Shown piece by piece: positions 12,154 through 15,747 of a stretch of DNA of 64,000 nucleotides (positions within the stretch are counted from its first letter, which is position 1; each line of letters opens with the position of its first letter). A program made the position numbers and the translations under genes. Where the stretch lies: positions 15,961,819 through 16,025,818 of the forward strand of contig JAHRHZ010000144.1 of the NCBI GenBank assembly GCA_024137785.1, written 5' to 3'. This stretch comes from Ginglymostoma cirratum (Eukaryota). Under the pieces are notes generated by a model, which was not told where the DNA came from, ran no database searches, and saw nothing but the letters and a program-made list of their open reading frames with translations.

Positions 12154-12660
12154 ATGCTAATGTATGTTGGATTGGAGACAATAGAATGTCGTATTTGGAA
12201 TATTTGGGGAAAATGGAGGACAGAAGTTCTAGCATTACTACCCAAAGCTAAACCACCCAAGTCTGAGCTACATTGTACAGTAATATTTGATGAAACTCAG
12301 AATGAAACACTAGAGAGGCAACGGCATGATGAAGTCATCACCCAGCAGCATTTAAGAAGTAAAGCTATGATAGTAGGAAAGCAGGGAGCTGCGTTGCAAA
12401 TAAGGAAAAATGAATTCTTGGAAAAATGGTATAGTGTGCCAGGAGCCACGCCCCATGTGACACTATTAGTAAATGAGGGATATCAGTCCAAAGACTTAGG
12501 ACCCATGGTAAAGCAAGCAGAAACGATCAGTGATTGGCAAATAGCAGCATCAGGGGTCTGGAAATCTGGGAGCGATGATTATGCTAGAATTGCAGTATGT
12601 ATAGACATGGTGGGAAACCCAAAGGAGGTCGAGGTGACTCCCCAACGGTGGATGCCAGTA
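12154..12660 (+). pseudogene. 2H phosphoesterase (CNPase-like) domain within Pol
   Basis: SELHCTVIF (His at 12271) and PHVTLLV...KDLGPMV (His at 12454), 61 aa apart; resembles vertebrate CNP LHCTTKF/AHITLG. Confidence 0.75.
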
Positions 12661-12699
12661 ACAGTTGATGAAAATGGTCAACAAAAGGATGAGCGATTG

Positions 12700-13545
12700 G
12701 ATACATTGCCGGTCATTTTATGGTCACAACATGACACAGATGTGGGGAAAGTGAAGTCAGCAAATCCAGTAGAGATAAAGTTAAAAAAAGGGGCTATTCC
12801 ACCTAGAAGGCCACAATATCCCTTAAAACCAGAAGCAGAGGAGGGAATAGCAGCAACGATACAGGGATTACTGGAAGCAGGGGTGCTTAGGGAGATGAAT
12901 AGTCCCTGTAACACCCCATTGTTGCCAGTCCTAAAAGTAGATGGGTCAAAGTGGAGACTTGTGCATGATTTAAGAGCAGTAAATGAGGTGGTGGAGGATT
13001 GGCCAGCAGTGGTTCCAAATCCACATATACTGCTGACTAATGTGCCTCCACAGGCAGCCTGGTTTTCGGTTGTTGATTTATGTTCTGCTTTCTTCAGCAT
13101 TCCACTGGCAGAGCATTGCCAGTATTTGTTTGCCTTTACGTACAGGGGTCAGCAGTATACGTACACTAGAATGCCGCAGGGGTTTAAACAGTCACCACAT
13201 GTATTCAACCAAGTTTTAAAGACAGATTTAGAGGGCATGGTGTTGGAAAGTACGCTAATTCAGTATGTTGGTGATTTATTAGTCTGCTCAGAAAGTCAGG
13301 AACGATGTGAGCAGGACAGCCTTTTCCTCCTGGAGAAACTGGCATGTGGAGGTCACAAGGTGTCCAGAAAGAAATTACAGTTTTGTAAGCAGCAGGTTGA
13401 ATATTTGGGTAGACTGATTTCTAAAGGGACTAAGATGATTGCACCAAATCAGGTTGAGGCAATTACTAAAGCCCCCAGACCTAAGATGGTAAGACAGATG
13501 ATGACATTTTTGGGAATGGCAGGATTTAGTTCAGATTGGATAGGG
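12700..13545 (+). pseudogene. pol: Reverse transcriptase (inactivated, 3'-truncated Pol)
   Basis: PQYPL, SPCNTPLLPV, WRLVHDLRAVN, VVDLCSAFF, TRMPQGF, QYVGDLL (YVDD changed to YVGD) and FLGMAGF. No RNase H or integrase follows. Confidence 0.95.
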
Positions 13546-14967
13546 AAAGTGCAGAGCCCACTTTCTTAGCATGGGCACGGGCCCGGAACAACTACTGGTA
13601 TCAATGGGCGAATTATACGGCAGCAATATTGGCCAGACAGGACTGTTTCCTGTGTGATAAGGCAAATCCATCATATTTCGTTGTCCCTATGCCTTATAAC
13701 TCGTCCACCTGCACCCAATGGTGGCTACAACAACTTACCCAATGGCGGCTATAACATCCTGGACAACCATTTGACCCAGATGGTTTATCATCATATAGGT
13801 GGCCCTGTTGTCCTTCTGGTGCCTCCTCCTCCAAGCCTCCACATTCCATCAACACGATGACGTGGGGAGACGGCATCTCCAACAATGGTGTGGCTACAGT
13901 ACTCCTTGGTCTACTAGTGAAACTGCCCACCCATTCCCCATAACTGATTTTAAGGTGCATGAAGATTTGAGCTTTGAATGTTTCAAACGAAATGGTTCTG
14001 TGCCAGTAGGCCATTTTGAAGGCCTGTGTGGGAACACGATTAACATTGAGGCCGCCACAACCTTTGGTGCCATCCTGCACTCTCAGCATATCCCATTAGC
14101 AGATACCTGGTGGCTGTGTGGACGGGAAGGTGGGTTACGTCCGATAATTCCCTCTGACTGGGATGGTATCTGCACTCGTGTAATGGTCCTTCACGAGGTT
14201 GTTGTTTCGCCACAAGCTCAATTTGACGCTCTGTCGCAACTGATTTTATGCCGTCTGAGATGACAGTATGTCCCTGATCCAGCAGTACGAATCGATAGCA
14301 TAGGTCAGCCAAGAGGCATTCCCAACGAGTTCAAGGCCCGAAACGAAATTGCTGCGGGGTTCGAGTCTCTTCTCTCGCAAGTGGTATTAGCAAGAATGCC
14401 GAATGGATTAATTACATCTATTACAACCAACAACGATTTATTAACTACACTAATGATGCCCTCTCAGCCTTGGGGGAGCGATTGGATGCAACTACAAAAA
14501 TGTCATGGCAAAACAGGCAGGTCCTGGACTGGATGTTGGCCGAGAAAGGCAGAGTCTGTGTAATGTTTGGAGAACACTGTTGCACCGTCATACCTAACAA
14601 TACTAGCCCAGGAGGGTCATTTACTTAGGCAATGGAAAAGCTAAAGAAACTAAGGGAGGAGCTCAAGGACAATGCAGGTTTTGGCCATGAGGTTTTTGAT
14701 TGGTTGGATAACGTATTGGGGGTTTGGGGAGCTTGGTTCGCTAAGATTGGAATTACCATAGGTATCTTGTTGTTTGTCATCGCATTTGCATTTTTCTGTG
14801 CTTTACCTCTAATTAAGTCTCTTTTAGTGCGTTTCACTGCATGACAGCTCCTGGTTATTCCAACGACTTCCGGACACTTTTCCCCTTCTGATAATGTTCC
14901 GCCGCTCTATTACTATGATCTGACGTCCGATACGGTGCAGAAGGCTTGTCTGGACGAAGGCGCCTGA
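13546..14967 (+). pseudogene. env: Gamma-type Env (5'-truncated, with stops and frameshifts)
   Basis: SU CxxC (CFLC 13644-13655); furin-like RLR* at ~14252-14263; IDSIGQPRGIPNEFKARNEIAAGFES; ISD QNRQVLDWMLAEKGRVC with CX6CC (14509-14583); TM helix IGITIGILLFVIAFAFF. Confidence 0.92.
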
Positions 14968-15207
14968 GTTACTTCTATGAAATGCGCGAGTTAAGATTGT
15001 AAGGGTCCTCGGATCCTTTTTTCCTGTTCTGGTTATGGAAGGACGGGTTTTTGGCCCAGGGACTCCAGGAGTAGAGAAAGAACCCTTTAAGACTTATGAC
15101 CCCGAAACATTGGCTCTGCCCACTTTTGGGCCTGCAACATCCTATTGGTCATTATGGGGGGTCTAGCCTTATTGTCTTCTTTCTCTAAAGTGAGACCAGT
15201 AGGTCTC

Positions 15208-15218
15208 AAAGGGGGGAA
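15208..15218 (+). promoter_or_regulatory. Polypurine tract
   Basis: AAAGGGGGGAA immediately before the TG of the 3' LTR. Confidence 0.9.
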
Positions 15219-15747
15219 TGTACGGAAAATAAAAGGCAAGGTAGATGAAGTGATACATAAAATGATAGAATGATACATACAATTGTACCTTAGAGAAAAC
15301 CATGGTAGCATGATATGCTTAGGTTAGTCAATCCACGCGATGGGTATTAATAAAAAACAATGGTAGCATAATATGATTAGGATAGTCAAGCCACGTGGCA
15401 TGTAGGCAAATGTTAAAAATCATTGTGGCAGGAGTAATGCATGAATGCAATGATTGATTGAGCGTAGTGTTTTAAAGCAGAAAACAACTGAAGCAAAGAG
15501 TGATTTAGAAGATGAACAGTCTGGGAGAGATAACACATAGTTTTGGAGAGATAACACGGGCTAACATAATTGGTCATGTTGATAACCTCAGAGAAACATG
15601 ATAACTGAGAAAAAGTATAAAGAAGAACAGGCCCCGAGGGTCGGGGGCGATCTGGAAGTTACTTTCTGATTGTCGCAGCTTTTGTTTGCAAATAAAAGTT
15701 TACATTCTTGAGGAATTCTCTACGTCTCCTGGTGATTCTCTACAACA
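15219..15747 (+). repeat. 3' LTR (529 bp)
   Basis: TG...CA termini; matches the 5' LTR; followed by CTGT. Confidence 0.97.

What the first reader, a model, noticed from the sequence alone, without database searches (positions are those of the whole stretch)
12154..12660. CNPase-like 2H phosphoesterase domain inserted between protease and RT in a shark-type ERV Pol
Seen: after the protease (DTGA/GRD) and before the RT start (LWSQ..DVG..PQYPL) there are ~150 extra residues with two HxT motifs, SELHCTVIF (12271) and PHVTLLVNEGYQSKDLG (12454), 61 aa apart. Both motifs are intact. Established: paired HxT/S motifs define the 2H phosphoesterase fold (vertebrate CNP has LHCTTKF and AHITLG; coronavirus ns2 and rotavirus VP3 2H domains degrade 2-5A; phage Acb1 degrades cyclic oligonucleotides), and MLV-type Pol has no domain here. 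Inference: this lineage packages a protease-released phosphodiesterase. It could counter nucleotide second-messenger immunity (2-5A, cGAMP) or process 2',3'-cyclic RNA ends such as damaged primer tRNA. I recall 2H-like segments being noted in some fish retroviral polyproteins, so the domain type may not be new, but I know of no established function for it.
Basis: partly seen in the sequence, partly recalled or inferred. Interest (0 to 1): 0.82.

Follow-up and report, generated by a model that had tools for sequence, protein, structure and literature searches.

The report
CNPase-like enzyme domain in shark retrovirus
A broken endogenous retrovirus carries, between its protease and reverse transcriptase, a conserved domain predicted to fold like the nerve enzyme CNPase; this domain type was already noted in fish retroviruses, and it likely trims cyclic phosphates from RNA ends, although that is untested.

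Summary
His codons lie at 12271 and 12454, 61 residues apart, in a ~170-residue insert between protease and RT. Models of this copy and of a paralogue match CNPase best. VIA-align gives CNPase Z 15.4, against 8.1 or less for 2-5A and cGAMP phosphodiesterases. The insert was under purifying selection (dN/dS 0.11-0.20; 35 of 39 copies keep all four motif residues). It sits at the same place in teleost ERVs and three further ERV lineages of this genome, and matches walleye retrovirus polyproteins. The domain type is in print for fish retroviruses (PMC9503650, PMC4977317), and this scan noted it before in another genome. This copy is dead: stop at 12129, a frameshift in the insert's first codons (so 12154 is out of register), and RT tail, RNase H and integrase deleted. 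2-5A antagonism is unlikely as the general role, since teleost hosts lack OAS/RNase L yet keep the domain. Most likely role (about 45%): a virion-borne 2',3'-cyclic phosphodiesterase acting on RNA ends. Release by the protease is unproven. Verdict: new member of a known kind, function untested.

The parts
8581..9103 (+). 5' LTR
   Evidence: Direct repeat of 15221-15747; 512 of 527 columns identical, 11 substitutions and one 4-base indel
9108..9128 (+). Primer-binding site for tRNA-Ser(UGA)
   Evidence: After TGG, 17 of 18 bases match the complement of the 3' end of a host tRNA-Ser(tga) gene
9799..11738 (+). gag, broken; ends in an amber codon in frame with pro
   Evidence: tblastn with a natural paralogue: stops at 10753, 10762 and 11631, frame change between 11466 and 11523; TAG at 11736-11738 read from the sequence
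11739..12128 (+). Retroviral aspartyl protease (DTGA), followed by a stop at 12129
   Evidence: Pfam RVP E 2e-10; stop position
12132..12660 (+). CNPase-like 2H phosphoesterase domain, frameshifted in its first codons
   Evidence: Model pLDDT 91; Foldseek rows all CNPase/RICH; paralogue model Z 15.4 to CNPase; frame change near 12172-12179
12271..12279 (+). First HxT motif (HCT)
   Evidence: His kept in 38 of 39 and Thr in 37 of 39 copies
12454..12462 (+). Second HxT motif (HVT)
   Evidence: His kept in 39 of 39 and Thr in 38 of 39 copies
12718..13563 (+). Reverse transcriptase, N-terminal part only; the rest of RT, RNase H and integrase are deleted
   Evidence: Pfam RVT_1 E 6e-25; match to the paralogue's 1462-residue frame ends at residue 611
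13539..14955 (+). env remnant joined to the pol break; stops and frame changes
   Evidence: tblastn with paralogue env; Pfam TLV_coat E 8e-5
15221..15747 (+). 3' LTR, preceded by a polypurine tract

Best explanation
The ~170 residues between protease and RT of this defective endogenous retrovirus carry two HxT motifs and are predicted to fold as a CNPase-like 2H phosphoesterase, which in the replicating ancestor was likely made as part of Gag-Pol, likely packaged together with RT, and likely opened 2',3'-cyclic phosphates on RNA ends such as a nuclease-damaged primer tRNA or genome. Shown: position, motifs, purifying selection on variants shared among copies, and spread across ray, shark-like and teleost ERVs. 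Predicted: the fold. Inferred: catalysis, packaging, cleavage from the protease, and the substrate. Whether the domain is also cut from RT is open. This copy itself is a decaying fossil and cannot make the domain through Gag-Pol.
For: Fold: CNPase 2xmi Z 15.4 (rmsd 3.8, 164 aligned), next chain Z 9.7. All listed Foldseek rows with E <= 0.001 are CNPase/RICH for both models. Motifs: both HxT/S are present in 91 of 100 rows covering both, and the two His columns are the most conserved; likewise 22 of 24 long Pol proteins; mean pairwise identity of the domain is only 31%. A Gly 15 residues after the second His is in 72 of 74 rows and in host CNP. Selection: dN/dS 0.20 within and 0.11 between subfamilies, against protease 0.15/0.07 and RT 0.12/0.05. 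Omega is 0.13 for variants in 4 or more copies and 0.55 for private ones (p 5e-6). Position: in 71 of 72 proteins with a second domain the 2H follows the protease and/or precedes RT or RNase H. 2H distances track RT distances (rho 0.75; 0 of 2000 permutations). Location in Pol ties its dose to RT (established retrovirology). 2H enzymes resolving RNA 2',3'-cyclic ends is established (PMC9503650 section 21). The domain persists in hosts that lack OAS/RNase L.
Against: No activity is measured, and fold does not fix the substrate; 2H enzymes are promiscuous (own knowledge). Identity to CNPase is only 12-18%. Profile comparison with the host CNP exon is insignificant (probability 1-2%). The Arg two residues before the second His of host CNP is not among the four commonest residues of that column in the viral family. 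CNPase leaves a 2'-phosphate (own knowledge), which may not give RT a good primer. Other retroviruses replicate without the domain, and a clade of 5 RT loci in this genome has no hit.
Confidence: 0.45

Rival explanations
1. The domain destroys a cyclic nucleotide immune signal (2'3'-cGAMP or free 2',3'-cNMP) made when reverse transcripts are sensed, as phage Acb1 and poxvirus cGAMP phosphodiesterases do.
For: The host has STING, and zebrafish has cGAS and STING (10.1101/693333 passages). Acb1 is the only Pfam row for this copy (E 0.1). Acb1 and penguinpox cGAMP PDE are 2H folds on the same list. The domain is somewhat less constrained than protease and RT.
Against: Acb1 Z 7.5 and pox PDE Z 6.5 against CNPase 15.4. 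The Pfam score is 12.8 bits against a cut-off of 27. Expression only through Gag-Pol readthrough gives few copies for clearing a diffusible signal (inference).
Confidence: 0.2
2. The domain binds RNA or the primer tRNA as an accessory of RT and stays fused to it; the histidines serve binding more than turnover.
For: 33 of 88 proteins spanning the 2H/RT border share a conserved HG[RK][ED] motif there, which does not look like a cleavage site. The domain is always next to RT.
Against: All four catalytic-type residues are among the most conserved columns. In this family 32 of 38 copies have a hydrophobic-Pro pair at that border, as in type 1 retroviral cleavage sites (the site type is from own knowledge).
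Confidence: 0.13
3. The substrate is ADP-ribose 1'',2''-cyclic phosphate or a related NAD-derived product, working with macro domains that some fish ERVs also encode.
For: 2H domains resolve this product (PMC9503650 section 21). Fish epsilon-like ERVs sometimes encode macro domains (PMC4977317 passage).
Against: The plant Appr>p CPDase scores only Z 7.5. Pfam found no macro domain in the 25 Pol proteins scanned.
Confidence: 0.1
4. The domain is a 2',5'-phosphodiesterase that degrades 2-5A to block RNase L, like coronavirus ns2 and rotavirus VP3.
For: This host has OAS-family exons at three gene-like places. The elephant shark has OAS1 and RNase L (PMC1845163 passage).
Against: Teleosts lack OAS and RNase L, yet most named carriers are teleost ERVs, and 22 of 24 long Pol proteins keep both motifs. 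ns2 Z 8.1, VP3 7.3, AKAP18 7.2. A Pfam search for RNase L in this genome gave only exons that look like IRE1 to me (label recalled).
Confidence: 0.07
5. This particular copy was co-opted by the host and makes a 2H-RT fragment from the ATG at 12154.
For: A 476-codon open frame spans 12139-13569, and its translation still gives a confident model.
Against: The frame begins out of register. The LTRs differ by only 2%. The pol-env join is seen in 1 of 39 copies. Private changes in the domain are 4 non-synonymous and 3 synonymous, too few to show constraint.
Confidence: 0.02

Closest known systems
2H/CNPase domain of fish epsilon-like retroviruses (walleye dermal sarcoma virus A4GTG3, walleye epidermal hyperplasia virus 1 Q9WHI8, Q2VF30; teleost ERVs of Basta et al. 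2009)
   Same: Best structural matches among viral models: TM 0.87, 0.76 and 0.71, E 5e-13 to 5e-9. Teleost ERV Pol proteins have the same PR-2H-RT order. Already noted in print.
   Different: 16-27% identity. The host here appears to be a cartilaginous fish (nearest named relatives are from a ray, 54-57%). BFVD labels two of the matches 'Envelope polyprotein'; that they are Pro-Pol is my inference. [quoted passage not shown]
Vertebrate CNPase / RICH catalytic domain (PF05881; 2xmi, 1woj, 2i3e)
   Same: Closest solved fold (Z 15.4). Same hairpin, motif 2 and Gly+15 layout as the host CNP exon.
   Different: 12-18% identity, below the Pfam cut-off, 30-45 residues shorter than the solved catalytic domains, embedded in Pol, and without the P-loop domain or CAAX tail that host CNP needs to inhibit HIV-1 assembly (PMC10761555 passages).
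Viral 2',5'-phosphodiesterases (MHV ns2, rotavirus VP3, AKAP7/18) and cGAMP phosphodiesterases (Acb1, penguinpox PDE)
   Same: 2H fold with two HxT/S motifs, carried by viruses.
   Different: Z 6.5-8.1, far below CNPase. Those are stand-alone or capsid-linked proteins rather than parts of Pol (own knowledge).

Membership tests
2H phosphoesterase superfamily | Two conserved HxT/S motifs | tested here: met
2H phosphoesterase superfamily | Two-lobed duplicated fold | tested here: met
   Predicted models match 2H structures only; the top 21 VIA-align rows are known or likely 2H proteins by their titles
2H phosphoesterase superfamily | Both histidines face each other in the central cleft | not tested
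   Model coordinates were not inspected; implied only by the structural alignment
2H phosphoesterase superfamily | Metal-independent phosphoesterase activity | not testable with these tools
   Needs an assay
Fish epsilon-like retroviral Pol 2H domain | Lies between protease and RT in Pro-Pol | tested here: met
Fish epsilon-like retroviral Pol 2H domain | Homologous to the domain of walleye retroviruses | tested here: met
   BFVD TM 0.71-0.76, E <= 5e-9
Fish epsilon-like retroviral Pol 2H domain | RT groups with reference epsilonretroviruses | tested here: inconclusive
   RT falls in a 99/97 clade with teleost ERV proteins, but no reference virus was in the tree
Vertebrate CNPase (PF05881) | Pfam score over cut-off | tested here: not met
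   1 of 74 members reaches E 0.011; the genome search with the family finds only the host gene
Vertebrate CNPase (PF05881) | N-terminal P-loop domain and C-terminal CAAX | tested here: not met
   Flanked by protease and RT instead
Vertebrate CNPase (PF05881) | CNPase-type catalytic fold | tested here: met
   Z 15.4, rmsd 3.8, 164 aligned
Vertebrate CNPase (PF05881) | 2',3'-cyclic to 2'-phosphate hydrolysis | not testable with these tools
   Needs an assay
Viral 2',5'-phosphodiesterases (ns2, VP3, AKAP7) | Closest fold is the ns2/AKAP7 type | tested here: not met
   Z 7.2-8.1 against 15.4 for CNPase
Viral 2',5'-phosphodiesterases (ns2, VP3, AKAP7) | Hosts have an OAS-RNase L pathway | tested here: inconclusive
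   OAS exons in this host, RNase L not found by Pfam; pathway absent in teleost hosts
Acb1 / poxvirus cGAMP phosphodiesterase | Family score over cut-off | tested here: not met
   12.8 bits against 27; best member E 0.017
Acb1 / poxvirus cGAMP phosphodiesterase | Cleaves cyclic dinucleotides | not testable with these tools
   Needs an assay

The most novel reading that the evidence does not exclude
A large clade of aquatic retroviruses packages a fifth Pol enzyme, a CNPase-derived phosphodiesterase that enters the cell with the core and destroys cGAMP or heals nuclease-cut primer tRNA: the first retroviral enzyme aimed at nucleotide-based innate immunity.
Probability: 0.3. Interest if true: 0.75.

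Novelty: new member of a known kind. Interest (0 to 1): 0.36.

Why it matters
The domain's existence in fish retroviruses has been in print since 2002/2009, but my five searches on it found no test of its function. It extends the domain to four ERV lineages of an apparently cartilaginous-fish genome. It shows the domain was under purifying selection close to that on protease and RT. It narrows the substrate: CNPase-type fold, and 2-5A unlikely. If activity on cyclic RNA ends or cGAMP were shown, it would name a new retroviral enzyme and point to an RNA-damage or second-messenger defence in fish. The broken copy in this window adds nothing special to that test.

Tried and rejected
Sequence-level searches do not see the fold: PDB phmmer gave no hit under E 1; the A1 profile was swamped by protease columns; hhalign against the host CNP exon was insignificant. 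A tree against host CNP was therefore not built, and a capture from host CNP is neither shown nor excluded. The ESM Atlas gave phage proteins with tRNA_lig_CPD (18-31% of members) and 2H-SAK at 0.94-0.96, a lead only. Expression: no RNA holder listed. Laid at 85% likeness over 8400-13800, one poly(A) set gave a mean depth of 0-4 per direction over the domain and the other none; this is trace and not locus-specific. The viral-contig search could not run on the alignment. A test of whether the domain decays in a five-copy subfamily lacking RT C-half and RNase H had too few changes. No amphibian carrier appeared among named hits, but amphibians were not searched directly. Trl1-type CPD structures are not in the VIA-align list, which does not exclude them. 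Basta 2009, Mazumder 2002 and Fodor & Vogt 2002 were not held. No literature search on cGAMP with retroviral 2H domains was completed. Target-site duplication: a 4-base CTGT repeat flanks the element only if the 5' LTR has lost its first TG; left open.

Full report
Observation. The window holds a provirus from 8581 to 15747. Its LTRs differ at 11 of 523 aligned bases plus one indel. Its primer-binding site matches a host tRNA-Ser(UGA) at 17 of 18 bases after TGG. Pfam finds a retroviral protease (11739-12128) and RT, and nothing significant between them. The two motifs are real: His at 12271 and 12454, 61 residues apart. Such a pair arises in 0.22% of 100,000 shuffles.

State of this copy. Against a natural paralogue with an unbroken PR-2H-RT-RNase H-integrase frame, this copy has three stops and a frame change in gag. 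It has a stop at 12129 and a frame change near 12172-12179 inside the start of the insert. Pol ends at paralogue residue 611 and is joined to a broken env. That join is seen in 1 of 39 copies.

Fold. A paralogue's whole domain (L002, 93% identical) folded with a 74-row alignment gives pLDDT 93; the window's own translation gives 91. Foldseek returns only CNPase and RICH among the listed rows with E <= 0.001 (TM by query 0.55-0.69, identity 12-18%). VIA-align over 48,161 chains ranks mouse CNPase at Z 15.4 (rmsd 3.8, 164 aligned). Next come bacterial and archaeal 2H enzymes (Z 8.7-9.7), Usb1 8.5, MHV ns2 8.1, Appr>p CPDase 7.5, Acb1 7.5, rotavirus VP3 7.3, AKAP18 7.2 and penguinpox cGAMP PDE 6.5. 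Sequence methods barely see the link.

Conservation and selection. The genome has 63 matches to the domain, a lower bound. I analysed 39 copies: the 30 loci and 9 of the 11 stretches (two were duplicates). 35 of 39 keep all four His/Thr residues. dN/dS is 0.20 within the larger subfamily and 0.11 between subfamilies, against 0.15/0.07 for protease and 0.12/0.05 for RT; the pairs are not independent. Among 36 copies of the larger subfamily, variants found in 4 or more copies have omega 0.13 and private variants 0.55 (p 5e-6), the same pattern as protease and RT. Selection therefore acted while the element replicated and relaxed after insertion. A search of 1.84 billion representatives gave 157 hits, of which 150 were listed. 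Of 157 aligned rows (including the query and some cluster members), 100 cover both motifs and 91 have both; the two His columns are the most conserved. These hits were picked by likeness to the query, which inflates the count. Still, mean pairwise identity of the domain among 17 Pol proteins is only 31%.

Spread. Named relatives are ERV-type Pol proteins of a ray and many teleosts. In 71 of 72 proteins with a second domain, the 2H follows the protease and/or precedes RT or RNase H. 2H distances follow RT distances (17 proteins, rho 0.75, 0 of 2000 permutations; four rows dropped as near-duplicates or rearranged), which fits one old gain. I took 20 of the 142 RT matches. 14 of 20 have a 2H hit upstream of RT, one of them from the focal family. 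The RT tree (16 of these 20 plus 17 others) places the rest in three further lineages. Five loci without a hit form their own clade, and one is a likely loss. Among viral models the best matches are Q2VF30, walleye epidermal hyperplasia virus 1 and walleye dermal sarcoma virus (TM 0.87, 0.76, 0.71).

Processing. A Gln followed by two hydrophobic residues occurs at the PR/2H border in 19 of 29 database proteins (shuffle mean 7.0, maximum 17 in 2000). This fits the Gln-at-P2 rule reported for the walleye virus protease (PMC3185560 passage). At the 2H/RT border, 32 of 38 copies of this family have a hydrophobic-Pro pair, but 33 of 88 database proteins have a conserved HG[RK][ED] motif instead. 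Release from the protease is likely; release from RT is open.

Mechanism. The best-supported reading (0.45) is a virion-borne 2',3'-cyclic phosphodiesterase acting on RNA ends such as nuclease-cut primer tRNA or genome. It rests on the CNPase-type fold, the conserved catalytic residues and the fixed place beside RT; substrate and packaging are inferred. Against it: fold does not fix substrate, the Arg before motif 2 of host CNP is not typical of the viral family, and a 2'-phosphate product may not help priming. Clearing cGAMP or cNMP (0.2) is possible, since the host has STING, but those enzymes are structurally more distant. A non-catalytic RT accessory (0.13) and an Appr>p enzyme (0.1) remain. 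2-5A antagonism (0.07) cannot be the general role: teleosts lack OAS and RNase L (10.1101/693333 and PMC1845163 passages) yet their ERVs keep both motifs. It is not excluded for sharks, which have OAS.

Literature. PMC9503650 (passages and section 21) names 2H domains in fish retroviruses and walleye dermal sarcoma virus, citing Mazumder 2002. PMC4977317 (passages) says fish epsilon-like ERVs sometimes encode CNPase or macro domains, citing Basta 2009. Those two primary papers and Fodor & Vogt 2002 were not held, so what they show on position and cleavage is unseen. PMC4422223 on shark ERVs has no occurrence of 'phosphodiesterase', 'CNPase' or 'domain' in its main text (supplements not read). 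PMC10761555 (passages) ties host CNP's anti-HIV effect to its P-loop Asp72 and prenylation, parts the viral domain lacks. PMC6307210, PMC11696070, PMC3985635, PMC3790719 and PMC3716682 (passages) did not bear on the question. Searches found no functional study of the retroviral domain; the library lacks most subscription papers. This scan reported the same idea in another genome (e1-7811984), which is not independent support.

Verdict. A real, conserved, CNPase-like 2H domain in a dead copy of an epsilon-like ERV. It is a new member of a known kind, with an untested but testable function. Interest 0.36.

Noticed in passing
window 9557-9723: A ~150-base insert in the ERV leader, bounded by a 17-base direct repeat and holding 44-base inverted arms. 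Read depth there is thousands of times that of the rest, so it is a very high-copy host repeat that likely jumped into the provirus.
   Followed up: partly
L012, L019, L020, L027, L037: 5 of 39 copies share a deletion from about pol residue 550 to 1109 (RT C-half and RNase H) but keep protease, 2H and part of integrase: a likely non-autonomous subfamily.
   Followed up: partly
P0079, P0100, P0110, P0133, P0144: Database proteins with 2H and RNase H but little or no RT between them. They may be deleted elements or gene-prediction artefacts.
   Followed up: no
L103: A copy nested in a 2H-bearing ERV lineage whose protease lies about 48 codons from RT, with no 2H hit: a likely loss in that copy.
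   Followed up: partly
L091, L095, L097, L098, L105: A separate RT clade (100/100) with no 2H hit in the ~1.5 kb upstream of RT.
   Followed up: partly
L044-L049: The host genome has OAS-family exons at two tandem places on one contig and one on another, plus STING and one CNP gene.
   Followed up: partly
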